Origin: Candidatus Zixiibacteriota bacterium
GTDB lineage: Bacteria > SM23-81 > DAOVCL01
Direction: 5' to 3'
DNA length: 41,640 nt
Assembly (NCBI GenBank): GCA_030670005.1
Contig: DAOVCL010000001.1
Location: 1-41,640 of the forward strand
Shown: positions 14,229-39,171 of the stretch, in pieces
How the letters are laid out: each line of letters opens with the position of its first letter
How positions within the stretch are numbered: position 1 is the first letter of the stretch
Made by a program: the position numbers and the translations under genes
The notes under the pieces: model-generated
The model's input: the letters and a program-made list of their open reading frames with translations, nothing else
Told to the model about the DNA's origin: nothing
Databases searched by the model: none

Positions 14229-14419
14229 TAAGATTTGGTGGACAAATGCTTGGGTCTTTGTTCAGGCATCTCTGAGTGATCTGGTGGGATGCAGAGAATA
14301 TAGAACAACCTGAGGAGACGGGCGCCCATCTCCCAGGCCTCTTCGTCGGAGATTGGCTTCCCGAACTCCTCGCAGTAGATCTGCTTTAATTCATCGATGT
14401 CGGATTGATTTAGTGGCAT
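14228..14419 (-). CDS. Small hypothetical protein (63 aa) immediately upstream of the serine recombinase
   Basis: ATG at 14419 gives MPLNQSDIDELKQIYCEEFGKPISDEEAWEMGARLLRLF... The longer ORF-track start at 14533 would run through the upstream gene's terminator. No recognisable domain. Confidence 0.35.
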   Translation of the reverse strand: MPLNQSDIDELKQIYCEEFGKPISDEEAWEMGARLLRLFYILCIPPDHSEMPEQRPKHLSTKS

Positions 14420-14530
14420 ACTTCCAAGGTAGGATAGATTCAAAGCGGTGAATAGAAGGGGGAAATTGACTTTAGAAGCAACTTGGGCAGACGATCTTTG
14501 AAATGGCATCTGAACCCAAATAAAAAGAAC

Positions 14531-14556
14531 CACCCCCTGAGATGTCTCAAGGGGTG
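14531..14556 (-). terminator. Intrinsic terminator of the 1269-aa T9SS gene
   Basis: Minus strand reads CACCCCTTGAG-ACAT-CTCAGGGGGTG followed by GTTCTTTTTATTT, about 35 nt after the stop at 14589. Confidence 0.6.
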
Positions 14557-14588
14557 ATTCTTTATTATTGCGCTTTTTTCGGATGGAG

Positions 14589-17500: not shown

Positions 17501-18398
17501 ATACATTGTCAATATACAGGTCCCTCTCATCCAGCCACTCAAGGATCAGATGGGTCTCGTAGCGTCTATCTTCAAGGATAACCCAATCAGGTAAAGTCAA
17601 ATCTTCGTATGAGCCAGGGGACTGAAAATCATCTGCATAAATGGATTTAGTAACCACCTCTGTTTTAGCTACTCCGGTATCGGGTTCAAGGTAGAATAGT
17701 TGGGAATGTGGGCTATCCTCATCCGATTTACCAACCCACTCGCACCACATTTTGACCGTTGCCACCTCAGTATGCTGGGTGTTATCTCCCACCATCTTCA
17801 TCCTGAAGGTTACATAATAGGGCCTACGCCTGCCCTGATCATATCTGAGAAAAGTCCCATCCAACAGAGGGCCAGCAGTGTCCTGGGCGACCAGGGCTCG
17901 GTAGACATAATGTCCGGGCTGGGGATCCGGGTCCCAATATTGGCCTCCGGTCGCAGGAGGATAGTCAAAGCGACTACCTTCTTCTATACCTACATCATAC
18001 GTAGCCTCCTGCCCATCGGCGAAAAGCCAAACCGTTGCGGTATCTGGAGCGGGGGAATATGGGTCAGTCCAGGGGAAGTTATCATCGATTACCGGGGATA
18101 AGTTCTGATTGAATATCTTGACGCCAAATGAGTTGTTCAGGCTTATCTCATCTCCATAGGTGACATCCAGATTAATCCCACAGCTATCAATCTGCCCCCA
18201 GTAATTCTCAAAGTTTACATCACCAGGGTCTTCCCATTGGTACATATTCACGATTACATCTTGAAGCCAATAGGGGTCGGTAAAGATGACCTTGGGGAAC
18301 CCCTCCAAGGTTTGCCCCCAAACCCCTGAGGCCCAAAAACAAACCAGCCCCAATAGGACAAAGGACAGGCCTAACTTTTTGAAATTTAACCGTCCCAT
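14589..18398 (-). CDS. Large secreted protein with parallel beta-helix and TPR-like regions and a T9SS C-terminal sorting domain
   Basis: AAGGAGA lies 8 nt upstream of the ATG at 18398. Signal peptide ...LSFVLLGLVCFWASGVWG. Beta-helix-like repeats NTGIYCDHSSPDIDHNLIQSCSYGVKVN...TGIYCMNS. TPR-like YYNRLGGWYRSQRLYEEAIQAFEYVISHYPES. C-terminus FQNYPNPFNPITEIKYALP...GIYFYRLQAGNFTQTKKMILLK. Confidence 0.75.
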   Translation of the reverse strand: MGRLNFKKLGLSFVLLGLVCFWASGVWGQTLEGFPKVIFTDPYWLQDVIVNMYQWEDPGDVNFENYWGQIDSCGINLDVTYGDEISLNNSFGVKIFNQNLSPVIDDNFPWTDPYSPAPDTATVWLFADGQEATYDVGIEEGSRFDYPPATGGQYWDPDPQPGHYVYRALVAQDTAGPLLDGTFLRYDQGRRRPYYVTFRMKMVGDNTQHTEVATVKMWCEWVGKSDEDSPHSQLFYLEPDTGVAKTEVVTKSIYADDFQSPGSYEDLTLPDWVILEDRRYETHLILEWLDERDLYIDNVFIRDVYYYYAFEYNGGGYYDQTIKDSLLAIHNINPALNFHWYKDEPRPTMLRSYTYVDSLAREAGTVPLNGAFYFVDDFNYFIQTLEPDELLFDRYTIYPNTDSASVGIHSIQKSWDKLIWGMRPAILAANGDPDNPNDDIPFWMFIQTFEYWYYGVKQYRNPTPNELKAEIYLSLCYGTKGIVYVVYPTIDYRKYIGNAGGRFGGLVDLVDAEGNPTSDPTIGHFVPNYKWYVVRDMNAILDSLNPVIQGLTWVDAGPWDEVSTLSGSYITSITSEQFPDTSVYVEVGLFHDDLYDYFMLVNRRCLSTETQTVTATLQLSQGECYTIKEMYSGDETVLFNQSGTVNFTTTLGPGQGKLFRLRQGAYLTTHHTWSGTDTIHCDITIASSGALTIQPGTTLKFASGTKLTVEGLLAAEGTASDSITFTSSASNPQMNDWYGIEFPGQASDHSRIRYARILYANTGIYCDHSSPDIDHNLIQSCSYGVKVNATGSIIHDNEFRNNMTGIYCMNSYSPWGSKPQIDCNVFDSSSSPGLLLYASSPFISQSLFKNNGHGVVCWGQSSPNFGYCQMDSNSVEGLLCSHNSSPILYAYPVPPKYPLPGYNHIIGNWKGVECKNSSYPNLGNYNFPGNNSIYDNSIYEIANANRLLRPVYAMYNWWNDPEGPDPSKFYREVIWWPWLEEPPGGGKLLAGEGGGGSPPDSSSNPADYYNRLGGWYRSQRLYEEAIQAFEYVISHYPESQHAQYALHFIILCWRDWGKEPQIVPYLENVAREYPDTDLRRYALEQSVPYLQRAGEYQKALGRCIYLRGNFQDEEMEKSLLFQMGVILRYGLKDDAGAKEMFRKFVQTYPEDILTPIAQLELGDLPSPPPPKQINQQGTAGLPDKFSLFQNYPNPFNPITEIKYALPEDCWVNLEIYNILGQRVVTLVNGKQVAGYKVAKWDASPLVSGIYFYRLQAGNFTQTKKMILLK

Positions 18399-18420
18399 TT
18401 TCACTTTCTCCTTTCTTTTA

Positions 18421-18480
18421 GCATTCAGCATTCAGCCGTCAGCTATCGGCTCTCGGTATTCGGTTTTCGGGATTCGCTTT
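18421..18480. repeat. Degenerate ATTCAGC / ATCGGC / ATTCGG short-motif array
   Basis: gcattcagcattcagccgtcagctatcggctctcggtattcggttttcgggattcgc, located between two T9SS genes. Confidence 0.5.
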
Positions 18481-18511
18481 GCCGATCTACGGGCCGCGAG
18501 CTACGGCTTTT

Positions 18512-20188
18512 TCACCTGATCAGCAAGAGTTTTCTGGTTTTCTGAGCCACACCTCCTTTCTGGGTTTGCACCCTCAATTGACAGAAGTAAACTCCACTCC
18601 CCACTTCTCTCCCCTCCTCATCCTTTCCATCCCAGGTTACCTCATATCTCCCTCCTTTTTGTAGTTTATCGACCAAAGTTTTTACCTCTTGCCCTAATAA
18701 GTTGTAGATCCTCAAAGTGACGGCGGACGGCCGACCGCGGACGGCGGACAGGGTGTAGCGGATCAGGGTGGTGGCATTGAAGGGATTGGGAAAGTTCTGC
18801 CGCAAACTCACCTCCCTGGGCAGCTCTAATCCTCCTTTCTCCTCCTGCACATAATTAAGCGTTGTATCTCCAGAGAAGACCATCACCCTCCCCTCACTGT
18901 TTTCATATGGCGGAGTATATAGCCCCGGTGCCCCAAAGAGGATGTCATCTATCCCATTCCCATTCACATCCCCTGCCCTGCCCACAGATTTGCCGCAACC
19001 CTCATAAGAACCAGAGAAACCGTTGAACCCTACATCGAGCTTCCCATCCATAATCCTGCCACCCAAGTAGACAAGTACAGCACCCAGGTCCCCAAACCCA
19101 CTGGGATTGCCTGCTAACACATCAGCATAGCCATCTCTGTTGATATCACCAGCTTGGGGAAAGGGCCCCTGCGGTCCCCACCAAACATTGCCATCTTCTA
19201 AGATCACATCGGGAATGGTATCCACCTCCTGCCCACCATAAAAGATATAGGCTCTGTATATATAGCCTAACGAATCCCAATAACCACCTCCACAAATTAT
19301 GTCTGCATATTCATCTCCATTCACATCACCAATGACGGATACTTCGGAGCTAATACGGTATGATAGATGCTCTTCATCAAGCACAAAGTCTGGGATAGTG
19401 TCCATCTCCTGACCCCCGAAATAAAGACGAAAATAATCCGGGGAAGGGGTACCTTTCATCCCTCCTATAACCACATCATCATAGCCATCACCATTAATAT
19501 CACCACCTCCGGAGACACTAATACCTAAGCCAGAGCGAGCTGAATCCCCCACCACAGTCCAATCAGGGATGCTATCCATATCCGGGCCACCCAAAAAGAT
19601 ATAGACCTTGCCCTGCATGGTTTCATTGGGATAATTTACCGCTGACACGATAACATCATCATATCCATCACTGTTTACATCTCCTGCGGTTGAAAGAGAA
19701 CAACCAAAACCATCAAGAAAGTTCTCACCAACCAGAATCACATTCGGAATGGTATCCAATAAGGGTCCACCAAAATAGATGTATATTACACCTGGCTCCT
19801 CGGCATAGTATCTGCTCACGTAGATCATGAAATCACCAGCTTCGTCACCATTAACATCTCCAGCATAACTCAATCGAGATGTAAGTATCTCATCATTGCC
19901 TCTACTCCTAAGAACCATATCCGGTATTGAATCCATCGGTGAGCCACCATAGTAGAGGTAGACTTTCTGGTCGCCACTTGCTCCAGCTATGATATCATCA
20001 TATCCATCCCCATTCTGATCACCTATCCCAGCAACGCCATACCCGAGTCTGCTTCCAGCACTATCCCCCACCGCCTCAAGTAATTTCACTCCGCTATACT
20101 TTCCATGCTTCAGAAACTGTCCACGAGTAGATACCGAAATAGTCAGGAATGTGACGGCGAAGACTGGGATTATGTATTTAGGTTTCAT
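18512..20188 (-). CDS. FG-GAP/VCBS-repeat beta-propeller protein with T9SS C-terminal sorting domain
   Basis: Signal peptide MKPKYIIPVFAVTFLTISVS. At least seven GDxNGDGYDDxxxG repeats (GDQNGDGYDDIIAGA, GDVNSDGYDDVIVSA, GDINGDGYDDVVIGG, GDINRDGYADVLAGN, GDVNGNGIDDILFGA...). C-terminus NFPNPFNATTLIRYTLSAVRGRPSAVTLRIYNLLGQEV... Confidence 0.85.
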   Translation of the reverse strand: MKPKYIIPVFAVTFLTISVSTRGQFLKHGKYSGVKLLEAVGDSAGSRLGYGVAGIGDQNGDGYDDIIAGASGDQKVYLYYGGSPMDSIPDMVLRSRGNDEILTSRLSYAGDVNGDEAGDFMIYVSRYYAEEPGVIYIYFGGPLLDTIPNVILVGENFLDGFGCSLSTAGDVNSDGYDDVIVSAVNYPNETMQGKVYIFLGGPDMDSIPDWTVVGDSARSGLGISVSGGGDINGDGYDDVVIGGMKGTPSPDYFRLYFGGQEMDTIPDFVLDEEHLSYRISSEVSVIGDVNGDEYADIICGGGYWDSLGYIYRAYIFYGGQEVDTIPDVILEDGNVWWGPQGPFPQAGDINRDGYADVLAGNPSGFGDLGAVLVYLGGRIMDGKLDVGFNGFSGSYEGCGKSVGRAGDVNGNGIDDILFGAPGLYTPPYENSEGRVMVFSGDTTLNYVQEEKGGLELPREVSLRQNFPNPFNATTLIRYTLSAVRGRPSAVTLRIYNLLGQEVKTLVDKLQKGGRYEVTWDGKDEEGREVGSGVYFCQLRVQTQKGGVAQKTRKLLLIR

Positions 20189-20224
20189 TTAATCTCCCTC
20201 CTAAGAGGTGGTTGACCCTCTATC

Positions 20225-20839
20225 GCAAAGGTAACGCCCTCCTTGTGCTTATTATCTTTAGCCTATCACCATCCACAGCCCCGCTGTAGCCTGAGAGGTG
20301 GCTCATGGTCAAATATTGCATCAGCTTTAGATTGAGCATATCTCGTGGGTGTGGTTTTTTGGTGGCGTTACCTGTAGGTAACTGAAAGGCATAAGTGAAA
20401 TGTGATCCGAACCAGCCTCTTTGATAGAGGATTAGCTACAGAGGGATGACGAGTAGCCAGTAGTAAGTGGCTTTAACCGCTGCATCCAGGTTAAGCAAAC
20501 GTAACTCTGGCGAAGATAAGAGAGGGAAATGCAGGAGTACTTGTATTGGTAATCAAATGCAACTCAGGAAGCGCTTAGTCAAACCATTTTAGCTTCTGTT
20601 TCCACCAAACAAGAAAACCAATTGGCAATCCTCTGTCAAGGGAATTTTTATCCGTTTTGCAGAATAGAGATACCGGACTCTGAATCCCTGGGGCTTCCGT
20701 AGGAAACCCTGCCAAGCTTTGCTCGGTCGTATAAAGCTTCACTTCGTTGATCCAATAAGATCACCGTCTGCTGGCAATTAGATTCTTGTCTGCACAAAAG
20801 ACAGGAGCCATCCGATTTCACGGATGGCTTTTTGTTTTT
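20225..20839 (+). ncRNA. Candidate large structured ncRNA of unknown family (5' end uncertain)
   Basis: No ORF of 60 aa or more in any frame across 20189-20993. A 10-bp long-range helix pairs 20229-20238 with 20364-20373. Multiple nested hairpins are present. The 3' end is a canonical intrinsic terminator at 20806-20839. Confidence 0.4.
20806..20839 (+). terminator. Rho-independent terminator
   Basis: AGCCATCCG-ATTTCA-CGGATGGCT forms a 9-bp stem, followed by TTTTGTTTTTG. There is no upstream CDS on this strand. Confidence 0.75.
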
Positions 20840-20993
20840 GGGTTATCCACAACCCAGATCACTTAGCTAAGAGCCAAAACGGATTTTGCCTTCCCAATTT
20901 TGTCTCCAGGGACAATTTCTTCCGTCTATTTTATCCTTTCTTCTCCTGTTACGATTGAAGTATGAATCTGAAACAGAAAGGGGGTGATAGAGA

Positions 20994-21323
20994 ATGAAAA
21001 ATCACTCCCAAAGAATCAAGCAGAAGACAATTAAACAGAAACAGATACTAAACAGGCTTTGGAAATATCGCAAGGAGCGAGGGCTAACACAGAGAGATGT
21101 AGCTTACATACTGGGGACAAAGAATTCTTCTCAGATCTCCCACTGGGAGAGAGGAGACAAGATCCCCGGGACCAGGAATATCTTGAAACTCTCTGCTCTG
21201 TATCAGCGGTTATCCAATGATCTTCTATGGGGATTCTATGAGAAGCTAAGGGAAGAAGTAATAGCCAGGAAGAAGAAATTAAAAAATCTAAAGATCAGAC
21301 ATGCTCAAACCCAAAGAAGTTGA
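20994..21323 (+). CDS. XRE-family helix-turn-helix transcriptional regulator
   Basis: GGGGGTGA SD upstream. LWKYRKERGLTQRDVAYILGTKNSSQISHWERGDKIP is a classic HTH_3 pattern. 109 aa. Confidence 0.85.
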   Translation: MKNHSQRIKQKTIKQKQILNRLWKYRKERGLTQRDVAYILGTKNSSQISHWERGDKIPGTRNILKLSALYQRLSNDLLWGFYEKLREEVIARKKKLKNLKIRHAQTQRS

Positions 21324-21352
21324 GCAGGGCTTAGAAAAATAAGTCTAATATT

Positions 21353-22045
21353 ATGCAAATCCAAATCAGGGATTTAAGAAATGGAGATTGGTATTGGATA
21401 CATAAGCAAATAATCCAGGAGCATGCTCCTAAAATAAAAGCAGTGGGAGTTTTGGTTTACAGCTTTCTTGCTTGCCTTGTGGATAAAAGCCAGGCCTGTT
21501 TTCCCTCTCAAAAATACATGGCCGAGAAGCTTGGCTACTCACGGGCCACCATATCCGAAACCATCAGAGTCCTGGAAAGTTCTGGACTGATTAAGATAGA
21601 GAGACGAAGCAGGTATCATCTGGTCTACTCTCTGCTCAAGGTGAGATGTCAAAGGGAGTTTACACCTGAAACCAGATGTAAAGCAGAGGAAACTCAGATG
21701 TCAAATAGGGGAAACTCAGATGTAAACTATGGTGACACTAACGATAATACGTTAACAAGAATATATAATACCGATAATAACGATAGAATAAAAACAGGAA
21801 CGGTCTTAAAAAAATTCAGACCTAAAAGCAAAGAAGAACTGTTAGCCTGGGATATTGCTCAATCTTTAGATGATGAAAAAAACCTGGGCCTCTACATCTC
21901 CTACTGTCGCAAGTATCCTGGGGATATAATCTGGAGGGCATTTGGAGAGACGAAAGAAATTTCAACAGAGAAAATCAAGAAGTCCAGAGGGGCCCTGTTT
22001 ACCTATCTGGTTAAAAAGTATTCAAATAATAAGAAAAAGTTATGA
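21353..22045 (+). CDS. Winged-helix DNA-binding protein, putative replication initiator (paralog 1)
   Basis: wHTH-like FPSQKYMAEKLGYSRATISETIRVLESSGLIKIER. The C-terminal module ...NLGLYISYCRKYPGDIIWRAFGE...KIKKSRGALFTYLVKKY is shared with the next gene. Confidence 0.5.
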   Translation: MQIQIRDLRNGDWYWIHKQIIQEHAPKIKAVGVLVYSFLACLVDKSQACFPSQKYMAEKLGYSRATISETIRVLESSGLIKIERRSRYHLVYSLLKVRCQREFTPETRCKAEETQMSNRGNSDVNYGDTNDNTLTRIYNTDNNDRIKTGTVLKKFRPKSKEELLAWDIAQSLDDEKNLGLYISYCRKYPGDIIWRAFGETKEISTEKIKKSRGALFTYLVKKYSNNKKKL

Positions 22046-22599
22046 TCAAAGAACCCCCTAAAATCTTACTCTTAAGAAGCAGGCTCATCGGAAATGATGG
22101 GAGAAGCTATCAGAGGATGAGACAGACCATTTGGCTCTATCTCTATTTGGTGCTGCAGCTCAACCCTAAGACGGGAAGATTGGCCACCAAGGTATCAACC
22201 ATAAGCCAGGATATGGGAATAAAACAAGAAACTATTAGAAGCTGGCTTGGCCATCTGAGGAGAAAGGGCTATGTGTCAGTGAAGAGGGATGGGGATTACT
22301 GGCTGATAACCGTAACCGGCTTGAAGCCAATCCCGGAAAGCTATCAGGCCAAAGCCTTGAAACCGGATGAGGTAGTCAATGTCGAAAAGCAGAGACTGGC
22401 CCAGAGGATAGCAAAGGAGTTTGAGGATGAGGGCAACCTGGGATATTATGAGGACCTCTGTGAGAGATACCCAGAACATTTAATTAACCGCGCCTTTTCT
22501 GAGGTGAAGAAAGTGCCTCAAGTAAAGATCAAAAAGTCGAGGGGCGCGCTATTTACATATCTTGTGAAAAAATATGCCAACAAAAAAGAAGAAAAATAA
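22042..22599 (+). CDS. Winged-helix DNA-binding protein, putative replication initiator (paralog 2)
   Basis: ATGA overlap with the upstream gene. wHTH-like ISQDMGIKQETIRSWLGHLRRKGYVSVKR. C-terminal ...NLGYYEDLCERYPEHLINRAFSE...KIKKSRGALFTYLVKKY. Confidence 0.5.
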   Translation: MIKEPPKILLLRSRLIGNDGRSYQRMRQTIWLYLYLVLQLNPKTGRLATKVSTISQDMGIKQETIRSWLGHLRRKGYVSVKRDGDYWLITVTGLKPIPESYQAKALKPDEVVNVEKQRLAQRIAKEFEDEGNLGYYEDLCERYPEHLINRAFSEVKKVPQVKIKKSRGALFTYLVKKYANKKEEK

Positions 22600-23080
22600 T
22601 AAAAGGATTCTGTGCATTGACCCTGGCACCAGGGAGATGGGCATAGCCATCTTAGAAGATACAGAGCTCATCTATTATGGGGTGAAGACGCTGAAGAAGA
22701 AGAGGCCGACTTCGGTTCTCTTGCGGGAGACAAGGAGGATCATCTCCAGGCTGATTGATGACTATGGCCTCAAGACCCTGGTCATTGAGAAGACCTTCTT
22801 CAATCGCAACAAGAATGTCTCCAACCTCATTGTCATGGCTGAGGAGATAAAGGCCTTGGCTAAAAAGAGAAAACTGAAAGTGGTTGAATATGCCCCCAAG
22901 ACAGTGCGTAAATCCGTCTGTCAGGACGGTAAGGCCACGAAGAGGGAAGTGGCCAAAGTAATCTCTTCCCGGTATCCAGAGCTAAACATATATCTGACCC
23001 AGGATCGCAAGTGGAAGGTGAAGTATTGGCAGAATTGCTTTGATGCAATAGCCTTGGGTCTCTGTTATCTATCTGAATAG
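22574..23080 (+). CDS. RuvC-like Holliday-junction resolvase (RNase H fold)
   Basis: ILCIDPGTREMGIAIL (first Asp), LVIEKTFFNRN (Glu), VVEYAPKTVRKSVCQDGKATKREV, and CFDAIALGLCY (C-terminal Asp). 168 aa. Overlaps the upstream gene. Confidence 0.8.
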   Translation: MPTKKKKNNKRILCIDPGTREMGIAILEDTELIYYGVKTLKKKRPTSVLLRETRRIISRLIDDYGLKTLVIEKTFFNRNKNVSNLIVMAEEIKALAKKRKLKVVEYAPKTVRKSVCQDGKATKREVAKVISSRYPELNIYLTQDRKWKVKYWQNCFDAIALGLCYLSE

Positions 23081-23085
23081 CTTTC

Positions 23086-23197
23086 TCCCTCTTCCCCCTG
23101 GTCTCATGGTAGGCCAGGTTATGCTCTTCTTGCCAAGGGTGTAAGGTGCGGTCTGGCCAGAGGCAAGATCAGGTGGGGCTGCACCTGGGAAGAGGGA
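23086..23197. other. Multi-branch palindromic structure (closing stem plus three hairpins)
   Basis: TCCCTCTTCCC (23086-23096) pairs with GGGAAGAGGGA (23187-23197). Internal hairpins are CCTGG/CCAGG (23097-23118), TCTTGCC/GGCAAGA (23128-23168) and CAGGTG/CACCTG (23170-23187). Confidence 0.4.
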
Positions 23198-23372
23198 TTG
23201 GTTATTGGACGATATGAGGCCATTGTGGGGTATAAAAAGTGCCCTTCGAAGTCCTATAAAGGACAAGCTAAGGTTAAAGTTGGTATGGTTATTTGGGAGA
23301 GAAGTTAAAAGCTGGCAGGGTTAATTGCCGGTATAAGTCTTAATGGTCTCAAGGAGCTCGTTTCTCTTGTCG

Positions 23373-23903
23373 CTAAACTTCGACTCTTCTTATTGGTATT
23401 CCACCTTTTGAATAGATGGCTTTAACCTCATTGAGATGACCGGTTTGAGTTGATATGATGATGCGGGCTTCAGCATGCGGGGCCAACCGAGGAATACCGA
23501 ATTTCATCACGCTGTCAGGTGATACACGAGCCTGCCTCAATTTGGGGCGCCACATACTGCTGTCCTCGCGAATTGTCCTAGGAGCGGCGAGGATATTGAC
23601 TTCTTGGTCTGACAGAATTTGATATGCCCAAATAGGTGAGTTGCTGACGATACTGAGTTCTATATTTTGGGTCTCCTTTCGTCCTTGATTATTCAAAATG
23701 AGACCTGATTCATGGCGAGAGAGTTTCTTATTGTCTTTTTCAAGTGGGAACATTTGATTTGGCCCGTAAAGAATAACTCTTGGTTTTTCTCTGGCATAAT
23801 AGTTGTAACACGGTCCATACCAAAAAGGAATGGAAATAAATGCTATGATTATAGCTATTGCCTGCCATTTAAGAGTTTTCTTTCTTGTCTTTGATCTTGG
23901 CAT
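23373..23903 (-). CDS. Single-pass membrane protein, unknown function
   Basis: Basic N-terminus MPRSKTRKKTLK followed by the TM segment WQAIAIIIAFISIPFWYGPCY, then about 130 aa with no recognisable motif. Confidence 0.5.
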   Translation of the reverse strand: MPRSKTRKKTLKWQAIAIIIAFISIPFWYGPCYNYYAREKPRVILYGPNQMFPLEKDNKKLSRHESGLILNNQGRKETQNIELSIVSNSPIWAYQILSDQEVNILAAPRTIREDSSMWRPKLRQARVSPDSVMKFGIPRLAPHAEARIIISTQTGHLNEVKAIYSKGGIPIRRVEV

Positions 23904-24055
23904 AGAGAAGAGTCAGGATTTTCTTACTTCCTTTTTGGGTTTCTGAATAAGTTAATGATCTGCTCCTTGGTTGGGATTTGGGACAGTTTGTACAGATCGG
24001 GTAAGTTGCAGTAATCTTGGAAATAGCAGGTAAAGGTAATTCCGAGCAAGCGGGC

Positions 24056-24762
24056 TTAGCTTTGTAAGCACTTCGCCAGGAATTCCTCAATTTCCTCTCG
24101 GAATTTCCAACCCTTTCTCTTTGTATCAAAAAGAAGGGAGGCCATTGGATTGGCTCCACTAAGATGAGGGAGTATTAACAAATTGCAGCTAGGGCTCTCT
24201 CTTTCTCCTATAGGAAAATGAACCTTGATTGGTTCTGAATCTGCCCCTGACAGAGCTCTTTTTAACTCTTTCCAGAAGAAATCTCTCCAATCGAGTGACA
24301 CATTAGCTTTCTTCAAAATCCAGATACTACCATGGTTACCTACGCATATAATTGTCTTAGGCAAAGTTCGTTTTATCTCTTCAGGTAACCAATGATCAGC
24401 ACACGCACGTAAGTTGATCCCTTTGTGTTTTTCTTGACGGATATTTCCAAAACACTTTATGTAGTGGGTCCAGTATAGTTTCAAGTCTCTATCTGGAGGT
24501 ACTCAAAAATAGATTGGAGTCTGTTTAAATGAATCCCACCTCTTTTGGAGATTGGAGGATCTATCGGGTACGCAGCAGGATGTAAGTTTTTTCTACCCCA
24601 ACAGATAAGCTCTTTCTTGTCATCTTTTATGCCTTCACATAATTTTATATCGTAGAAAAGAGGCTTTCCGGGGAATGATATTTCCCCGGTTGGCTGTTCT
24701 GTAATGATGAGGGCATGAATCTGGGGCCCTTCATATCCCTTACTATCAAAGGTATTGTCCAT
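24056..24762 (-). pseudogene. Divergent UDG-superfamily (DNA glycosylase-like) gene interrupted by a frameshift near 24484
   Basis: AAGGAGA SD upstream of the ATG at 24762. The upstream half carries a motif-A-like LIITEQPTGEISFPGKPLF and ...GGIHLNRLQSIFEYLQIE. The downstream half, in another frame, continues with LYWTHYIKCFGN, TIICVGNHGS and a motif-B-like LLILPHLSGANP. The two ORFs overlap as TTGA. Confidence 0.5.
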
Positions 24763-25015
24763 TATTTCTCCTTTGTTTTTGTTTCTTTCTACGAGAGTGA
24801 CCAAGCTTACATGATAGTTTGAAGACCAACAACTACCACCAGCTAAAATCGGTGGATTGGTAGGGATAACTAAAGCTATTTCTTAACTTCGGTGACCTTA
24901 AAATCTCCCTGGCAACTCTCCTGTTGACTGTCTTTTTTAAGGTTCTGTGCTTTGTTATCCATGAACTCGAGAAACTCGAATTACTAAAAACTAAGTACCA
25001 ATTCCAATGAGGAGC

Positions 25016-26011
25016 CTATTTTTTGAGTATCCTTTTTAGGCTTTGAATAAATGTATAACCATCTACCCAATTTTGATTACGACTTTTGTCATTCCCAGAA
25101 CCCTTTTCAATGTCAACATAGTCAACTTTGTATTTCTGGTTAGAGTGAACTAAGAGATACTCAAGAGCAGACTGGCGCTTATACTTCTTGTCCTTTAAAA
25201 ATGCAGGTCGCTTGGTAAACCTTTCTTGGTCAGTTTTTTGCAAAATTTGTAATTCTTCAACTATGACCTCACAGAGGTTTTCGATGGTTCTGGCTGCATC
25301 ACCTTCCAATCCTAAACCTATGAAGATTTTCTCTTGTTCGGTGGTGGCTTTTGCAACCAGATCAAAGAAATCAAGTTGATCGACATAGTAGCTTTCCCTC
25401 TCGCCTTTGGGAGGGAATTCTTCCTTGTAGTTCGAGACACCCTTGGATAATACACGCACCAGATAGTGGCTTGATCCAAACTCAGTCTCAAATTCTGATA
25501 ATAAATCAGACCAAGTAATTATAGAATCAACTCCTTCTATCTGAGTGAATTTTTCTGATCCTCCATATATGAAACAATGATGAACGTATTGGATTTCGGT
25601 GTTCTGAAGAATGTCATTGATGGTTTTCTTCTGTAAATATATCTGGTGCTCAATAGCATTTTTCTGGATACGCTGGAAAAATTTAGCTTCGCCAACTATC
25701 AGGTATTTATCCATAAGCACAAGAGTAATATCAGGCACTGCGTATTCGTTATTCTCCGTAAAGTCCCTACCATACCAGAGTTCCGTTGAAAGTTGCACAT
25801 TCTCGTAGTTAAAGTCAGCTTCCATAAATTCCTTGAGGTCAATATGCAACTTTCTATTGTTTCTGTCTTTAAACGGCAACTTGCCCGAATCGTCCTTTAG
25901 CAACGAGAGGAAGGTCTTGAGTCCTCCAAATTGGCTTTCCATAATCATCGAGGCCAGTACGGTTGCTGTCCAGTATTTTTCCGTGCGGTTGTTTTCGTCT
26001 AAACGTTTCAT
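25016..26011 (-). CDS. PD-(D/E)xK-family nuclease-like protein with an uncharacterised C-terminal domain
   Basis: Ordered motif STELWYG ... VPDITLVLMDKYLIVGEAKFF (E...PD...ExK) followed by QxxxxxQ helices. About 170 further aa have no recognisable motif. Confidence 0.55.
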   Translation of the reverse strand: MKRLDENNRTEKYWTATVLASMIMESQFGGLKTFLSLLKDDSGKLPFKDRNNRKLHIDLKEFMEADFNYENVQLSTELWYGRDFTENNEYAVPDITLVLMDKYLIVGEAKFFQRIQKNAIEHQIYLQKKTINDILQNTEIQYVHHCFIYGGSEKFTQIEGVDSIITWSDLLSEFETEFGSSHYLVRVLSKGVSNYKEEFPPKGERESYYVDQLDFFDLVAKATTEQEKIFIGLGLEGDAARTIENLCEVIVEELQILQKTDQERFTKRPAFLKDKKYKRQSALEYLLVHSNQKYKVDYVDIEKGSGNDKSRNQNWVDGYTFIQSLKRILKK

Positions 26012-26227
26012 TGCTATTCCTCTCTTTCATTTTTGCCGCTTCCCCTTTGTTTGGTCTATTAGCTTATATAAGCACCAAAGTCTGGTCACGCCTCGGCTTC
26101 ATGGCGTTGCCAGGGCCATTTAGCCTATCTTGTTTATATCCGACAGCGTTGCGATACTTCTTTGTAGAATAGAATTAAACCCAAAAATCAAAAAAAGCAA
26201 GGGTTTTTCCATTGCCTTTTGATTTCT

Positions 26228-26638
26228 TTACTTCATTTCGCCTATTTTGGGTGGCACGGCAAGGATCTCGGCCCCTTTAAGGCGATTTGGAATATCATTG
26301 AGCCAATGTTCTGCATCCTTGATAGGTCCCCGCACCAACAGCATATCATCGCTACCCGGTATAACTATAACTGCGTACCAATCTTTGTTCAATTCGCAGG
26401 GATCGTCTGGGGCTTTGCGGTAAACGTCGATCCCCCCGATCAGAGAACCAGAAGGCACATGTGGATCAGAGTGTGGGATCCCGGGGTCCTCACTTCCGCT
26501 CGCATAGACTGAATGCACGACGGTGGCTGGGATACTTCGTAACCACCTCGGAATGGCGTCATCAATTAACTGCACCGGTGCCCACTTACGCCTCATCACT
26601 GCCTGAAACTGGCAAAGCGGCATCTTTTTGATTCGCAT
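26228..26638 (-). CDS. Hypothetical protein (136 aa)
   Basis: The ATG at 26638 is preceded by AAAGGAGAG at 5-6 nt spacing. No recognisable motif. GC is visibly higher than in neighbouring island genes. Confidence 0.45.
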   Translation of the reverse strand: MRIKKMPLCQFQAVMRRKWAPVQLIDDAIPRWLRSIPATVVHSVYASGSEDPGIPHSDPHVPSGSLIGGIDVYRKAPDDPCELNKDWYAVIVIPGSDDMLLVRGPIKDAEHWLNDIPNRLKGAEILAVPPKIGEMK

Positions 26639-27017
26639 CCACACTCTCCTTTCTATTCTCTGGAGTTTAAAGTTTTTCCCCTGACTTAGAAATAAATGGA
26701 TTTTGCGGTCACTGTCAATTTATTTTCCCCCTTGCCTTTTGGTTTTTAGAAGAAAACTAATGGCCAAGGTGGTATAAAAACCCCCGCCTTCAACATAAAG
26801 ATATTTTGCGGTTGTTGAAGGTGGGGTCGCCAGACTGCCAAAGCATTCGCTGCTTTGGTAATTAAATTCTAAGTGGGTTTTGAGAAGTTGTCAAAACAGC
26901 AAATCGGTGGCGATTTAGTATAACAACTTGGTGTGTCTGCGAAGTGTAAGGTATTAGGGCAAGCGAAATAAGCCGCAAAGCCTGTATCAGATGAAGTTGC
27001 AGCTTAGGGGGAATTTC

Positions 27018-28097
27018 TCAGAAAAATAGATGAGCCCCATGTTTCTCAAGGAATTCACGCTTGGATAATGTAATATAATCCTCAAACACGTCTTTCTTGT
27101 CTTCAGGCCAAAGAATCTTGTATCGCCTTACGAAGCCTATGACATGGTCATTGAAGGGCAACAAAAGTCTCATTTCAGCCAGAGATTTGAGCCCAGCGAG
27201 TGCCAGGTTGTCCGGAAGTGATTTTAGCGCCCTCTTAGCTGCAGGAGCACCGTACCATGCACCAGAATTAGCTTGATTTAGTAGGGCTTGAACATACCTT
27301 GCTTCCAGCTCTGTTGGGATAGCATCTTGTGCTTTGGGCACTGCAGGAGTTATTTCGTTCACTTCATTATATTGATCTTGTTCCATGGTGGCAACAATAT
27401 CTGTAAAGAATGCTATGCGAAGTCTTTCATCAGTCCCTTTGAGTAATTCCGTAGGTACAGAAGATAGGAATTTAGCCTTAGTAGAAGCTTGGCTCGATAG
27501 AGTTACTTTTCGCAAGATCTGTTCAAGAATCAATATCGCCTTTTCATCATACGTTCCACTTGAGAGGATGGCCATCAAGGAATCTCCGGCGGAATCTTGC
27601 TCAAAGGCTTCAACAAGTTTGTCCAAGACGTACGCCTGATCTTGTTCACTTAACAGCTGTAGTTTGAGGGCCAAAGGTTCTAATGGAGTACCCGGCTTTT
27701 TGGCAGCATTGAGTATTGACTTGGCATCAGATGTAGGCGTATATGAGATAGTTGGAATTGTCTTAGGAATTTCTTTGGCTGACATACTGTGTAATCTTCC
27801 GGCGATTACTTGAGCCTGGAGAACGCCGCTTTCGACTAAGGAATAGAGTTGATCACGTCTTGCTTTCAGTTCCTCTGGCGTGAATTTGTTACCTTTAGGG
27901 TGTTTAGAATCGTATGCGCCTATCTCTTGATGGCAATCAAAGCAGAGGGGGATCCCATTGTCGTCATCATTACCGCCCTCGGCTTCTTGGATGATATGAG
28001 CTGCTTCAATGTTAGTTCCACACTGTTTAAAACAGAGGCAGCATATACGAGCGCAGCGAACAAACATTCTTGCTTTGGTATTCTTATCAAAAGGCAT
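27018..28097 (-). CDS. HNH endonuclease domain protein with long alpha-helical C-terminal extension
   Basis: N-terminal CCLCFKQCGTNIEAAHIIQEAEGGNDDDNGIPLCFDCHQEIG shows a CxxC...H...N...CxxCH HNH/zinc pattern. About 280 further aa are predicted helical by composition. Confidence 0.75.
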   Translation of the reverse strand: MPFDKNTKARMFVRCARICCLCFKQCGTNIEAAHIIQEAEGGNDDDNGIPLCFDCHQEIGAYDSKHPKGNKFTPEELKARRDQLYSLVESGVLQAQVIAGRLHSMSAKEIPKTIPTISYTPTSDAKSILNAAKKPGTPLEPLALKLQLLSEQDQAYVLDKLVEAFEQDSAGDSLMAILSSGTYDEKAILILEQILRKVTLSSQASTKAKFLSSVPTELLKGTDERLRIAFFTDIVATMEQDQYNEVNEITPAVPKAQDAIPTELEARYVQALLNQANSGAWYGAPAAKRALKSLPDNLALAGLKSLAEMRLLLPFNDHVIGFVRRYKILWPEDKKDVFEDYITLSKREFLEKHGAHLFF

Positions 28098-28396
28098 TTG
28101 AAACCCATCCTGGATTTACCATCGCTTCAATCCTTACCACTCAAAACTCAGATCGGAATGTTTGACTGTTTCATTTCGTTTCAATATAATCTCGCCTACC
28201 ACCTAAATCTCGATGGTTTACCTGCTAATAACCCTTCAACACTAATATCTTCATCTAGATCTTCCCAGTGAATGCCCTGCCCTCCACCAATCAACCGGAA
28301 CTTAGCTCCCTTCGGTCGCTAACTTCTCCATAGGGTCTCACCGACCCTCTGGCGCTCCGCAATCCTGCGCTTGCTCGGATTGCTCCGCTGTCACCC

Positions 28397-28464
28397 TTGA
28401 AGGGGGCATACCCCCTTCAAACAACCCCCGACATTTCGGAATTTTTTAGAAATTCCGAAATGTC
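28397..28464. repeat. Two adjacent perfect palindromes
   Basis: TTGAAGGGGG-CATA-CCCCCTTCAA (28397-28420, 10-bp arms) and GACATTTCGGAATTT-5 nt-AAATTCCGAAATGTC (28430-28464, 15-bp arms). Confidence 0.8.
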
Positions 28465-28673
28465 CAACTATTACGCTCTTCTTGGGTTGAATGCAAAAGC
28501 CTGGGGAACCGGGCAAGCGGAACAGAAATGCTTCGTCCATCACTTAGATCAACGCTTAAGGTGTCTTCTGTTACAGTAACACTTTGTGCAGTAGGCATTT
28601 GTATTTCAACCGCCAAAGTATTCATTCCAACCCTCTAAGGTGGCAGAAGCCCTCTTCCGCCACCTTCTCCTTT

Positions 28674-28723: not shown

Positions 28724-31192
28724 TCAGTGGTAATTTGGCTGGGAGCGGCGGCTACTTATCTTCTTCTCCCCCCCTTTCCATCTGCTCACAAAGCTCAGCT
28801 CATTCCCTTCTCTCCCCACCTCTATCTCCGCTCCGTCAACTACATCACCGTCAAGTATCCCCTCAGCCAAGGGATCCTCAATGAGCCTCCTGATCACCCT
28901 CTTCAGTGGCCTGGCGCCAAACGAGGGATCATAACCCTTCTCCGCCAGAAGCTCCTTTGCTTCCTTGGTCAGTTTAAAGGTAAGCCTCTTCTGTTTGAGT
29001 CTCTGATTGAACTCCTGGATAAGGATATCCACTATCTTCATCATATCCTTTCTGCTAAGGGAATGGAAGACGATTACCTCATCCAATCTGTTGAGAAGCT
29101 CAGGATTGAAGGTCTTCTTCAACTCCTCCAGTAACCTCTCCTTCATCTGCTCGTAGACGGCTCCCTCTCCTGTTTTCTGGAAACCCATAGACTTCCCCTT
29201 CTCTATCTCCCTGGCCCCCATATTGGATGTCATTATCACCACCGTATCCTTGAAGCTCACCTTCCGACCAAAGCTATCGGTAAGGGTCCCCTCGTCGAGT
29301 ATCTGCAGAAGGAGATTGAAGACATCTGGATGTGCCTTCTCGATCTCATCAAGCAGAACCACTGAGTAGGGTTTCCTCCTTACCTTTTCGGTAAGCTGCC
29401 CGCCTTCCTCATAGCCCACATACCCAGGAGGGGCCCCAATGAGTCTGGAGATGGCAAACTTCTCCATATATTCAGACATATCAATCCTCACCAGGGCATC
29501 GGGGTCCTCAAAAAGGAACTCGGCTAAGGCCCTGGCCAGCTCTGTCTTACCAACCCCGGTGGGTCCCAGGAAGACAAAAGAGCCTATGGGGCGATTGGGA
29601 GCCTTCAATCCAACCCTCGTCCTCCTTATGGCCCGAGAGATGGCCCTTATGGCCTCATCCTGTCCCACTATCCTCCTGTGTAGCTCCTCCTCCATCCTGA
29701 GAAGCTTCTGGGATTCGCTCTCCTCCAAGCGTTGGATTGGAATGTCGGTCATCTTGGAGATAACCTCGGCAATGTCGGCGGCGGTTAAGAGGACCTTGTT
29801 CTCCTTCCGCTCCTTCTCCCAGTCCTGCATAGCCTTCTCTAACTTCTGGCCCAGTTTTCTCAGCTTATCCCTCAGCTCGGCAGCCCTCTCAAACTCCTGA
29901 TTTTTGACTGCCTCCTGTTTTCTGCCCTCCACCTTGGCCATCTCCCCCTCTATCTTCACGATGGATGAGGGTTTGATCAGGGAGTTGAGATGCGCCCTGG
30001 AACCCGCCTCATCGATGACATCGATGGCCTTATCGGGTTGATACCTCCCGGAGATATACCTGTCGGAGAGCTGAACTGCCGCCTCCACAGCATCCTCACT
30101 GATCACTACCTTGTGATGCTCCTCATACTTGGTCTTCAGTCCCCTGATGATCTCCACCGTCTGCTCATAGGTAGTGGGGTCCACCATCACCGGCTGAAAC
30201 CTTCGCTCCAAGGCCCCGTCCTTTTCGATATGTTTCCTGTATTCATCCAAGGTGGTGGCACCTATACATTGTAGCTCTCCCCGGGAGAGAGCGGGCTTGA
30301 ATATGTTGGAGGCATCCAGTGAACCCTCTGCACCTCCTGCTCCCACGATGGTGTGCAGCTCATCTATGAAGAGGATGACATTGGCGCTATTTTTTATCTC
30401 GTTTATCACCGCCTTGATCCTCTCCTCAAACTGGCCGCGATACTTGGTTCCGGCAACCAGGGCGGCCAGATCCAGGGTTACCACCCTCTTCTCGCTCAGG
30501 ATCTGGGGCACCTCACCGGTCACAATCCTCTGAGCCAAACCCTCCACTATAGCGGTCTTACCCACACCTGGCTCCCCAATGAGAGCTGGGTTGTTCTTTT
30601 TTCTCCTGCTCAAAATCTGGGTCACCCTTTGGATCTCCTTCTGACGGCCAATTATGGGGTCAATCTTTCCCTTCCTGGCTAGATCGGTGAGATCTCGGCC
30701 AAAGTGATCCAGGGCTGGTGTTTTGCTCTTTCTGCCAGGGGCACCGGCTGCGGCCTCGCCAGAGGAGATCTTCCTCAGTTCCTCAAAGACGATTTGATAG
30801 TCCACATCATACATAGCAAGTATCTGGGAGGCCACACTCTTTGGATCCTTGAGGATGGCCAGAAGTAGGTGCTCAGTCCCCACATTCTTAGAATTGGTAA
30901 GCCTGGCCTCTTGAGCAGCGATCTCCAGCACCCTTCTCGCCCGGGGGGTAAATGGTATCTGGCCAATGGTCAGGGTCCCTCCGGTAGCAGCCACTGCCTC
31001 CTCAATGGATTGCTTTAACTCGTCCAACTCCAAATCCAGGTTTAAAAGGATGGAAATAGCCATCCCTTCCCCCTCCCTGATTATCCCTAAGAGGAGGTGT
31101 TCAGTGCCTATATAATCATGCCTTAATCTTCCTGCCTCCTCTCTGGCGAACTGAATTACCCTTTTCACCCTCTCACTGAACATTCCATCCAT
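28724..31192 (-). CDS. clpC: ATP-dependent Clp protease ATP-binding subunit ClpC
   Basis: Double Clp_N repeats, a UVR-like motif [13 protein letters not shown], and two AAA+ modules ([15 protein letters not shown] and [15 protein letters not shown]). 822 aa. An alternative ATG at 31183 gives MFSERV... Confidence 0.95.
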
Positions 31193-39143: not shown

Positions 39144-39171
39144 TTGAACTTACCTCCTCACTTCTAAGGCT

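What the first reader, a model, noticed from the sequence alone, without database searches (positions are those of the whole stretch)
23373..28097. Co-oriented run of HNH nuclease, orphan 136-aa protein, PD-(D/E)xK nuclease, UDG-like glycosylase and membrane protein: candidate undescribed anti-MGE system(s)
Five minus-strand genes in a row pair DNA-targeting catalytic folds (HNH, PD-(D/E)xK, UDG-like) with uncharacterised accessory domains or partners: a 280-aa helical tail, a 170-aa C-terminal domain, a 136-aa orphan and a single-pass membrane protein. None matches the architecture of a classical restriction-modification system, since no methyltransferase, ATPase or helicase is visible, nor any named defence system I can recognise. 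Glycosylase-based defence against modified phage DNA has been described recently (Brig1-type). A glycosylase next to nucleases could act on abasic or modified DNA, but that is inference. The gaps suggest several single-gene modules rather than one operon.
Basis: inference. Interest (0 to 1): 0.8.

Follow-up and report, generated by a model that had tools for sequence, protein, structure and literature searches.

The report
Nuclease gene cargo on mobile element
The five co-oriented genes are not one defence system but a patchwork of independently travelling single genes (two intact nucleases, a small conserved protein, a broken glycosylase gene and a membrane protein) sitting in the variable cargo arm of a small mobile element; they are plausible but untested anti-invader genes.

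Summary
The gene run exists, but with corrections. The UDG-like gene is split by a frameshift into 93-aa and 142-aa ORFs, and the same split is present in two other assemblies. The "orphan" 136-aa protein belongs to a conserved, unnamed family with 122 representative homologs. The HNH protein (HNH plus a confidently predicted alpha-solenoid) belongs to a widespread ~360-aa family. The 331-aa protein carries an invariant E/D/ExK motif and a PD-(D/E)xK-like fold, and its family is very rare. No PADLOC model matches any of them.

The run lies directly downstream of a conserved 2.4-kb core, XRE-Rep-Rep-RuvC (window 20788-23202). Related contigs have the same core followed by no cargo or by entirely different minus-strand cargo (AbiV, ParE/Phd, unknown genes). 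One variant also carries a tyrosine integrase and excisionase. Only the 331-aa cassette is shared with one other variant.

Across about 100 homolog loci none of the five genes co-occur. The HNH family's neighbours include restriction-modification genes, recombinases and Schlafen-like genes, mixed with housekeeping genes.

Verdict: this is a mosaic cargo arm of an integrated element carrying independent single-gene modules. They are probably conflict or defence nucleases, and one is decayed. It is not a multi-gene system. Interest is moderate to low.

The parts
27018..28097 (-). 359-aa HNH nuclease fused to an alpha-solenoid (ARM/HEAT/PUF-like) C-terminal domain. It is intact and belongs to a widespread ~360-aa family.
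   Evidence: 245 homolog clusters, all full length, and at least 474 relatives in metagenome contigs. Invariant residues are C19, C22, H34, C52, C55 and H56. The AlphaFold2 model has pLDDT 93.7 and pTM 0.89. Foldseek gives only weak solenoid matches, E 0.2-1. The closest solved HNH core is McrA, E=0.0017.
26228..26638 (-). 136-aa protein of a conserved but unnamed small-protein family, with motifs ASG, GGxDVYR, NKDWY and GPxKDxEHW.
   Evidence: 122 representative homologs in 1.84 billion proteins. The alignment is A3. There is no Pfam hit among 57 members and no PDB hit. Genomic contexts are heterogeneous.
25016..26011 (-). 331-aa protein: an N-terminal PD-(D/E)xK-type nuclease domain plus a ~170-aa C-terminal domain of unknown fold. 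It sits in a discrete cassette (25016-26129) that is shared with a sister element.
   Evidence: Only 4 homologs exist in 5.8 billion proteins. E77, D94 and E108-A-K110 are invariant. The AlphaFold2 model has pLDDT 70. Top Foldseek hits are mostly PD-(D/E)xK nucleases but none is significant against PDB; one BFVD hit reaches 1.4e-4. The cassette is 90% identical at nucleotide level to L008. dN/dS is 0.18-0.20.
24481..24762 (-). N-terminal fragment (93 aa) of a frameshifted UDG-superfamily gene. It carries a variant of motif A, TEQPTGE.
   Evidence: The same ORF call is made in L001 and L002.
24056..24484 (-). C-terminal fragment (142 aa) of the same UDG-superfamily gene, in the -1 frame relative to the N-terminal fragment.
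   Evidence: Pfam UDG gives 1.8e-4 for this fragment alone and 25.2 bits, above the 24.3 gathering score, for the fused protein. PDB 4zbx (family-4 UDG) aligns across the junction. The k-mer-limited search found no homologs other than the protein itself.
23373..23903 (-). 176-aa single-pass membrane protein of unknown function.
   Evidence: One hydrophobic helix at about residues 15-33. No family hits and no relative in viral contigs. Its 90% cluster holds only near-identical copies.
20788..23202 (+). Conserved core of the mobile element: XRE repressor (20994-21323), two HTH_36 Rep/DnaD-like proteins (21353-22045 and 22042-22599) and a RuvC-like resolvase (22574-23080).
   Evidence: Pfam, PHROGs and NCBIfam hits. 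The core is 76-90% identical at nucleotide level to L008/L009, L010-12 and L118-121, and the homology always ends near 23202. L010-12 add a tyrosine integrase and an HTH_17 excisionase. dN/dS is 0.07-0.25.
28196..28625 (-). Co-oriented DUF2442 gene upstream of the HNH gene, disrupted by a ~170-nt highly structured MITE-like insert (about 28292-28463).
   Evidence: The spliced protein scores 78.2 bits against DUF2442, against 35.5 for the truncated ORF. Copies of the insert occur in L010-12. The RNA fold has z=-7.5. Contigs L001 and L002 end inside the insert.

Best explanation
The run is the variable accessory (cargo) arm of a small integrated mobile element. The element's conserved core, on the opposite strand, encodes an XRE repressor, two Rep-like initiators and a RuvC-like resolvase.

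The arm is a mosaic of single-gene cassettes that were acquired and lost independently:
- an intact HNH nuclease whose alpha-solenoid domain would supply target or trigger recognition;
- an intact PD-(D/E)xK-type nuclease with an extra C-terminal domain;
- a small conserved protein of unknown role;
- a UDG-superfamily glycosylase gene already inactivated by a frameshift;
- a membrane protein.

Each intact nuclease most likely acts alone as a conflict gene that cuts foreign DNA or kills infected cells, in the manner of type IV restriction enzymes or Shedu-like single-protein nucleases. This would benefit both the element and its host.

Shown: the gene content, the element context, the independence of the genes, the frameshift, and purifying selection on the 331-aa gene. 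Inferred: nuclease activity and any defence role.
For: Element context:
- The core at 20788-23202 recurs in three other contig families at 76-90% nucleotide identity. Homology always stops about 120 nt after RuvC.
- What follows the core differs each time. L008/L009 have HEPN_AbiV plus unknown genes plus a split copy of the 331-aa gene. L118/L119 have ParE/PhdYeFM plus unknown genes. L010-12 go straight into host genes, with an integrase and excisionase on the other side of the core.
- GC content is 0.39-0.45 across 21-28 kb, against about 0.50 in the flanks.

Independence of the genes:
- HMMs of the 331-aa and 136-aa families find nothing in about 85 HNH-family loci or the reverse.
- The 331-aa homologs sit next to unrelated genes.
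- The 136-aa family has no sequence-conserved neighbour.

Cassette mobility: dS of the 331-aa gene between the window and L008 is 0.25-0.31, against 0.6-0.87 for the core genes.

Functionality: catalytic residues are invariant, and dN/dS of the 331-aa gene is 0.18-0.20.

Conflict flavour:
- Neighbours of the HNH family include serine and tyrosine recombinases, N6 methyltransferases with Eco57I domains, type I R subunits, a BsuBI/PstI restriction endonuclease and SLFN_AlbA_2.
- One 136-aa homolog lies between a PIN gene and a GmrSD_N+HNH gene, inside an island with AbiEii, an MmeI-like gene and a PLD-SNF2 gene.
- The HNH module also occurs with many different Pfam-less C-terminal regions.
- The full-length family is absent from 50,697 phage genomes.
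Against: - No defence function is demonstrated for any of these families, and PADLOC gives no hit.
- The neighbourhood analysis had no background control, and the neighbours also include housekeeping genes.
- The window has no integrase or att site next to the element, so the cargo boundary on the HNH side is undefined. The genes could belong to the host rather than to the element.
- The PD-(D/E)xK fold assignment rests on a medium-confidence model with no significant PDB match.
- One gene is broken, and a sister copy of another is split too, so part of the arm may be decaying.
Confidence: 0.55

Rival explanations
1. The five genes form one coordinated multi-gene anti-MGE system. For example, the glycosylase would create abasic sites on modified DNA, the HNH and PD-(D/E)xK nucleases would then cleave them, and the small and membrane proteins would act as regulators.
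For: The genes are co-oriented and adjacent. The DNA-targeting folds are plausible partners. UDG-superfamily defence glycosylases do exist: Brig1 (PMC11078745) and Brig2 (bioRxiv 10.1101/2025.10.29.685425).
Against: The glycosylase gene is frameshifted in all three available copies. No pair of the genes co-occurs in about 100 homolog loci. Gaps of 150-380 nt separate the genes. The 331-aa cassette moves alone between element variants.
Confidence: 0.05
2. The genes serve the element's own life cycle or DNA metabolism rather than defence. Examples would be an HNH homing or packaging endonuclease, a recombination nuclease working with RuvC, and uracil repair.
For: They lie next to replication and recombination genes. 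HNH and PD-(D/E)xK nucleases are common in phage replication and packaging modules. PHROG HNH families match the HNH domain.
Against: Sister elements with the same core lack all of these genes, so they are dispensable for the element. The full-length HNH family is absent from 50,697 phage genomes and has only one full-length relative in IMG/VR. No terminase, intron or intein context is present. In the UDG-like protein the uracil-reading Asn (N82 of 4zbx) aligns to His, the family-4 N-terminal CxxC is missing, and the gene is broken (PMC11078745).
Confidence: 0.15
3. The arm is mostly decaying genetic debris of an immobilised element and has no current function.
For: The UDG-like gene is frameshifted. 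The sister copy of the 331-aa gene is split in L008/L009. An HNH-family member is broken into three ORFs in L063/L064. The adjacent DUF2442 gene is disrupted by a MITE-like insert. No integrase lies next to the core in the window.
Against: The HNH, 331-aa and 136-aa ORFs are full length with all family-invariant residues. dN/dS of the 331-aa gene is 0.18-0.20 even against the split copy. The core genes are under strong purifying selection, dN/dS 0.07-0.10.
Confidence: 0.15

Closest known systems
Variable defence/accessory hotspots of integrative mobile elements, such as the P4-like satellite and P2 prophage hotspots and integron cassettes (from my own knowledge, plus bioRxiv 10.1101/2025.10.29.685425 for integron-borne glycosylases)
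   Same: A conserved element core is followed, at a fixed position, by unrelated cargo in each variant. That cargo includes Abi (AbiV), toxin-antitoxin (ParE/Phd) and nuclease genes. Individual cassettes are exchanged separately from the core.
   Different: The core here (XRE, two HTH_36 Rep-like proteins, a RuvC-like resolvase, sometimes a tyrosine integrase) is unlike P4, P2 or integrons. No attC-like or att repeats were found. The hosts are uncultured bacteria encoding T9SS-sorted (Por_Secre_tail) proteins. None of the window's cargo is a validated defence gene.
Type IV / McrA-like standalone HNH restriction nucleases
   Same: It is a single polypeptide with an HNH beta-beta-alpha-Me, zinc-finger nuclease plus a separate domain that could supply target recognition. 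McrA is the closest solved HNH core (profile E=0.0017). There is a weak PADLOC mREase_IV hit (E=0.042).
   Different: The domain order is reversed: the HNH is N-terminal here. The partner domain is an alpha-solenoid with no significant structural match, not a 5mC-binding domain. Similarity is limited to about 30 residues. The substrate is unknown.
Brig1/Brig2 UDG-superfamily antiviral glycosylases (PMC11078745; bioRxiv 10.1101/2025.10.29.685425)
   Same: It is a highly divergent UDG-fold gene in a mobile, A/T-richer context. The best solved relative is the same Sulfolobus tokodaii family-4 UDG (4zbx/4zby) that is reported as Brig1's best structural match (PMC11078745). The uracil-reading Asn is replaced, by His here and by Glu in Brig1.
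   Different: The gene here is split by a frameshift and is probably inactive. Motif A reads TEQPT rather than GE(A/Q)PG. I had no Brig1 or Brig2 sequence or model, so relatedness was not tested. The k-mer-limited search found no homologs at all.
Shedu (SduA) and other single-protein PD-(D/E)xK defence nucleases with variable accessory domains
   Same: It has a PD-(D/E)xK-type core with an additional domain, is a standalone gene, and is found on mobile DNA. SduA, Hna, Card1 and an Argonaute-associated Cas4-family nuclease appear among the weak Foldseek matches.
   Different: No PADLOC Shedu hit. Foldseek E-values are 0.006-0.4 only. The family has about 5 members in 5.8 billion proteins, so it is far rarer than Shedu.

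Membership tests
HNH endonuclease superfamily (PF01844 and relatives) | A beta-beta-alpha-Me motif with a general-base His, an Asn and a metal-binding His, often framed by CxxC...CxxC zinc ligands | tested here: met
   C19, C22, H34, C52, C55 and H56 are invariant and N47 is nearly invariant in 103 homologs. PHROG HNH gives 1.6e-8. Many homologs carry precomputed PF01844. The window copy itself is below Pfam gathering, 19.5 against 21.4 bits.
PD-(D/E)xK nuclease superfamily | Catalytic D...(D/E)xK on the second and third core strands, with an upstream acidic residue | tested here: met
   E77, D94 and E108-A-K110 are invariant in all 5 family members. In the model D94 precedes strand 95-99, and ExK ends strand 103-110.
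PD-(D/E)xK nuclease superfamily | An alpha-beta-beta-beta-alpha-beta core fold recognisably similar to solved members | tested here: inconclusive
   The AlphaFold2 model has pLDDT 70, from a 5-sequence alignment. Top PDB Foldseek hits are mostly PD-(D/E)xK enzymes (Nt.BspD6I, EcoO109I, PspGI, BstEII, SduA), but the best E-value is 5.9e-3 and TM-scores are below 0.25. One unnamed BFVD hit reaches 1.4e-4. No sequence-profile hit.
Uracil-DNA glycosylase superfamily (PF03167) | A Pfam score at or above the gathering threshold | tested here: met
   This holds only for the conceptually fused protein: 25.2 against 24.3 bits, with the alignment spanning the frameshift junction. The 142-aa ORF alone scores 22.0 bits.
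Uracil-DNA glycosylase superfamily (PF03167) | One intact reading frame encoding the whole fold | tested here: not met
   There are two ORFs in different frames with a 4-nt overlap. The split is identical in L001 and L002.
Family-4 UDG | Motif A GE(A/G)PG, a uracil-reading Asn in the 'TN' strand, and four Cys ligands for an Fe-S cluster including an N-terminal CxxC | tested here: not met
   Motif A reads TEQPT. N82 of 4zbx aligns to His100. There is no N-terminal CxxC in the sequence. NCBIfam family-4 models score 16 bits against cutoffs of 125-250.
Brig1/Brig2 defence glycosylases | Sequence or structural homology to Brig1 or Brig2 | not tested
   No Brig1 or Brig2 sequence or model was available. 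PADLOC v2.0.0 predates them. The only shared feature is the same best solved relative (PMC11078745).
Any catalogued defence system (PADLOC-DB v2.0.0) | A significant match of any component to a defence-system HMM | tested here: not met
   No hit was found for five of the six ORFs. The HNH ORF has only a chance-level mREase_IV hit, E=0.042.
Classical restriction-modification system | A cognate methyltransferase adjacent to the nuclease | tested here: not met
   No methyltransferase domain was found in any ORF between 20994 and 28625.
Multi-gene system / operon | Conserved co-occurrence of at least two of the genes in other genomes | tested here: not met
   HMM and tblastn searches of about 100 homolog loci found no second family member next to any of them.
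Integrative mobile element | An integrase or recombinase with flanking att repeats | tested here: inconclusive
   Sister elements L010-12 carry a tyrosine integrase and HTH_17 next to the same core. The window has no integrase remnant near the core and no convincing flanking direct repeats. A serine recombinase lies 7 kb away at 12618-14153.

The most novel reading that the evidence does not exclude
The HNH-alpha-solenoid protein would represent a new, widespread family of single-protein immune nucleases, with at least 245 clusters across several phyla. In this reading a conserved N-terminal HNH "warhead" is coupled to interchangeable, uncharacterised C-terminal sensor domains. The 136-aa family would be a new small accessory or regulatory protein that recurrently accompanies nucleases (HNH, PIN) in defence islands.
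Probability: 0.25. Interest if true: 0.6.

Novelty: new member of a known kind. Interest (0 to 1): 0.35.

Why it matters
If the reading is right, the locus is another example of a mobile element using a fixed "slot" to shuffle single-gene nucleases and addiction modules. This time the hosts are poorly studied uncultured bacteria.

It also points to three uncharacterised protein families that could be tested as stand-alone defence genes: the HNH-solenoid family, the rare PD-(D/E)xK family and the 136-aa family. The HNH-solenoid family is the most useful lead. It is abundant, it has a confident structural model, and its nuclease module is also found attached to other unknown C-terminal domains.

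The finding does not reveal a new multi-gene mechanism. Its glycosylase component, the most topical element, is a broken gene.

Tried and rejected
- **One five-gene system:** rejected for lack of any co-occurrence.
- **HNH-359 and orf136 as a conserved pair:** four HNH-family loci with long flanks and 80 metagenome loci contain no orf136 relative. An orf136 homolog does sit next to a different HNH protein (GmrSD_N+HNH) in L023, but other contexts have RtcA/RtcB, aconitase, UvrD or Sel1 neighbours. This is a hint only.
- **Frameshift as an assembly error:** rejected, because the same split is present in a 99.8%-identical but distinct contig and there is no long homopolymer at the site.
- **Programmed -1 frameshift:** no slippery heptamer is visible at ACTTGAAAC. 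It was not pursued further.
- **Phage homing or packaging HNH:** there are no matches in 50,697 phage genomes.
- **att sites or cassette recombination sites:** only short, chance-level repeats were found.
- **Integrase remnants near the core:** none found.
- **Rfam search of the region and the whole window:** nothing found.
- **Relatives of TM176 and the RuvC-like protein in IMG/VR:** none found.
- **orf136 family against Pfam and PDB:** nothing found.
- **Scan of genome contigs with the broad orf136 alignments:** it failed for lack of conserved stretches and succeeded only with 6 close sequences.
- **C-terminal extension of P0159:** I read it as PIN-like, but could not verify it.

Full report
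**What is in the sequence**

Between the RuvC-like gene (plus strand, ends at 23080) and clpC (minus strand, 28724-31192), every sizeable ORF is on the minus strand:
- a 359-aa HNH protein (27018-28097);
- a 136-aa protein (26228-26638);
- a 331-aa protein (25016-26011);
- two overlapping ORFs of 93 and 142 aa (24481-24762 and 24056-24484);
- a 176-aa protein (23373-23903).

Upstream of the HNH gene lies a sixth co-oriented gene, a disrupted DUF2442 gene (28196-28625). Intergenic gaps are 150-380 nt. Promoter-like and terminator-like sites are no more frequent than in shuffled sequence. GC content is 0.39-0.45 across 21-28 kb, against about 0.50 on either side. No tRNA and no Rfam family is present.

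**The individual genes**

HNH (359 aa):
- The window copy scores just below the Pfam cutoffs but hits PHROG HNH families at 1.6e-8.
- It has 245 homolog clusters, nearly all 350-370 aa and aligned end to end. They come from Bacteroidota, Desulfobulbaceae, Planctomycetota, Geomonas and many metagenomes.
- The CxxC...H...N...CxxCH residues are invariant.
- With a 103-sequence alignment, AlphaFold2 gives a confident model (pLDDT 93.7, pTM 0.89). It has a small N-terminal HNH domain followed by an all-helical solenoid at residues 74-358.
- Foldseek finds only weak similarity (E 0.2-1) to PUF, armadillo and HEAT repeats.
- The nearest solved HNH core by sequence profile is McrA (E=0.0017, about 30 residues).

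331-aa protein:
- It has no family hit in any library and only four homologs in 5.8 billion proteins.
- E77, D94 and E108-A-K110 are invariant.
- A medium-confidence model (pLDDT 70) places these residues on consecutive strands.
- The Foldseek top lists are dominated by PD-(D/E)xK enzymes, but no PDB match is significant. One unnamed BFVD hit reaches 1.4e-4.
- I accept the PD-(D/E)xK assignment as probable, not proven.

UDG-like gene:
- The 142-aa ORF hits Pfam UDG below the cutoff.
- Joining the 93-aa ORF to it lifts the score above gathering (25.2 against 24.3 bits). Both the Pfam alignment and the alignment to the Sulfolobus tokodaii family-4 UDG (4zbx) run straight across the junction.
- It was therefore one gene, now broken by a single-base frame change. 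The break is the same in two other assemblies, one of which differs at several other positions.
- The uracil-reading Asn (N82 of 4zbx; its role is described in PMC11078745) aligns to His. Motif A reads TEQPT, and there is no N-terminal CxxC. Even the ancestral protein was therefore not a canonical uracil glycosylase.
- No homolog other than the protein itself was found.

136-aa protein:
- It is not an orphan. A full HMMER scan of 1.84 billion representatives gives 122 homologs of 115-145 aa with conserved motifs.
- There is no Pfam or PDB relative.

176-aa protein:
- It has one N-terminal TM helix and no relatives beyond near-identical copies.

**Context: a mobile element**

Immediately adjacent, on the plus strand, are an XRE repressor, two HTH_36 Rep/DnaD-like proteins that share a C-terminal domain, and a RuvC-like resolvase. 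This 2.4-kb block (window 20788-23202) recurs at 76-90% nucleotide identity in three other groups of metagenome contigs. In every comparison the homology stops about 120 nt after the RuvC stop codon. What follows differs in each group:
- In L010-12, host genes follow directly. A tyrosine integrase and an HTH_17 excisionase sit on the other side of the core.
- In L008/L009 there is a run of convergent genes: HEPN_AbiV (PADLOC AbiV 2.7e-10), several unknown genes, and an 88%-identical copy of the 331-aa gene that is itself split.
- In L118/L119 there is a run of convergent genes that includes ParE/PhdYeFM.

The co-oriented minus-strand run in the window therefore occupies the variable cargo slot of this element family.

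The only cargo shared between variants is the 331-aa cassette (window 25016-26129, 90% nucleotide identity). Its synonymous divergence (dS 0.25-0.31) is less than half that of the core genes (0.6-0.87). This indicates that it was exchanged after the cores diverged. Its dN/dS of 0.18-0.20 shows purifying selection.

The window has no integrase remnant next to the core and no convincing att repeats. The cargo boundary on the HNH side is therefore not defined.

**Are the genes linked?**

No.
- The 331-aa homologs outside this element sit beside an HTH antitoxin-like gene and trkH/trkA (L003), or beside SbcCD-like and UvrD genes (L004).
- HNH-family members are flanked by varied genes. Examples are an integrase, an AAA_15/21 ATPase, SLFN_AlbA_2 and a type I restriction-modification system in Arenibacter (L006), a LanC-like gene and housekeeping genes (L005), and SLFN_AlbA_2 and a deaminase in Geomonas (L007).
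- HMMs of the 331-aa and 136-aa families find nothing in 80 metagenome loci plus 4 genome or viral loci of the HNH family, and nothing the other way round.
- The 136-aa family has no sequence-conserved neighbour in 11 genome loci. Its neighbours range from PIN and GmrSD_N+HNH inside a clear defence island (L023) to RtcA/RtcB, aconitase, UvrD plus an integrase, and Sel1 repeats.

**Is a defence role plausible?**

- I examined 126 neighbour ORFs from 21 non-redundant full-length HNH loci. The most recurrent Pfam families were serine recombinase (3), N6_Mtase/Eco57I (2), tyrosine integrase (2), SLFN_AlbA_2 (2), NOV_C (2) and DUF488 (2). Single type I R, BsuBI/PstI and Hen1/RlaP genes were also present, alongside housekeeping enzymes.
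- This is the flavour of variable, conflict-rich regions, but I had no background control.
- The full-length family is absent from 50,697 phage genomes and from plasmids, apart from domain-only hits. It has one full-length relative in IMG/VR. This argues against a phage homing or packaging role.
- The same HNH module (residues 1-95, 46-78% identity) is attached in other contigs to unrelated, Pfam-less C-terminal regions of 150-540 aa. This is a modular architecture reminiscent of sensor-effector immune proteins.
- UDG-superfamily glycosylases are established defence effectors (Brig1, PMC11078745; Brig2, bioRxiv 10.1101/2025.10.29.685425), but the copy here is broken.

**Verdict**

The best-supported explanation is a mosaic cargo arm of a small integrated element that carries independent single-gene modules. 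Two are intact putative nucleases that most likely act alone against foreign DNA. One is a decayed glycosylase gene. Two are of unknown role.

The multi-gene system reading is effectively refuted. The single-gene defence reading is plausible but untested.

Against the catalogue of known things, this is a new member of a known kind: an accessory or defence hotspot of a mobile element. It contains uncharacterised families, of which the HNH-solenoid family is the most worthwhile experimental lead.

Noticed in passing
window 28196-28625, insert at about 28292-28463: A DUF2442 gene is interrupted by a ~170-nt insert made of five consecutive hairpins (RNA fold -82 kcal/mol, z=-7.5). Splicing the insert out restores a full DUF2442 match (78 against 35 bits). 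Diverged copies of the insert occur in contigs L010-12, and both short metagenome contigs (L001, L002) end inside it. It looks like a MITE or REP-like repeat of this lineage.
   Followed up: partly
window 20788-23202; L008-L012, L118-L121: This is a family of small elements with a conserved XRE / Rep / Rep / RuvC-like core under strong purifying selection (dN/dS 0.07-0.25). Some members carry a tyrosine integrase and an HTH_17 excisionase. Each has different cargo after RuvC. No relative of the RuvC-like protein was found in IMG/VR. I do not know of a described element type with this core.
   Followed up: partly
window 21353-22599: The two Rep-like proteins (230 and 185 aa) share a C-terminal domain (58% identity over 66 aa, both ending in KKSRGALFTYLVKKY). 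Their genes overlap by 4 nt, and the second overlaps the RuvC-like gene by 26 nt.
   Followed up: no
window 20189-20993: This is an ~800-nt stretch without ORFs between the FG-GAP gene and the XRE gene. It contains a terminator-like hairpin followed by a T-run on the plus strand at about 20806-20845. Nothing in Rfam matches it. Homology with the sister elements begins at 20788, so the left 600 nt are specific to this genome.
   Followed up: no
window 10887-14153: A large serine recombinase (Resolvase + Recombinase + Zn_ribbon_recom, 12618-14153) sits at the edge of a low-GC patch (0.40 at 11-13 kb), about 7 kb from the element. Large serine recombinases were also the most frequent neighbours of the HNH family elsewhere (3 of 21 loci).
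   Followed up: no
L065-L117 (metagenome loci): The N-terminal HNH module of the 359-aa protein (residues 1-95, up to 78% identity) is found on many proteins with different, Pfam-less C-terminal regions of 150-540 aa. This suggests domain shuffling around a conserved nuclease head.
   Followed up: partly
P0159 (334 aa); L023 5364-7689: One orf136-family member carries a ~180-aa C-terminal extension that I read as PIN-like; this is unverified. In L023 an orf136 homolog lies between a PIN gene and a GmrSD_N+HNH gene, with gaps of 116 and 28 nt. This is a possible recurrent link between the small protein and nucleases.
   Followed up: partly
L008 6025-7021; L063/L064 5989-7166: Relatives of the cargo genes are themselves often broken. 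The sister 331-aa gene is split into 174 + 147 aa, and an HNH-family member is split into three ORFs. This is consistent with rapid turnover of these genes.
   Followed up: no
window 10887-20188 and 35103-41457: Several large secreted proteins carry Por_Secre_tail (T9SS) sorting domains that are similar to one another. There are internal tandem repeats at about 39650-40610. clpC, mcsB and a UVR-domain (mcsA-like) gene lie on the other flank. The host is probably an FCB-group bacterium; it was not identified.
   Followed up: no
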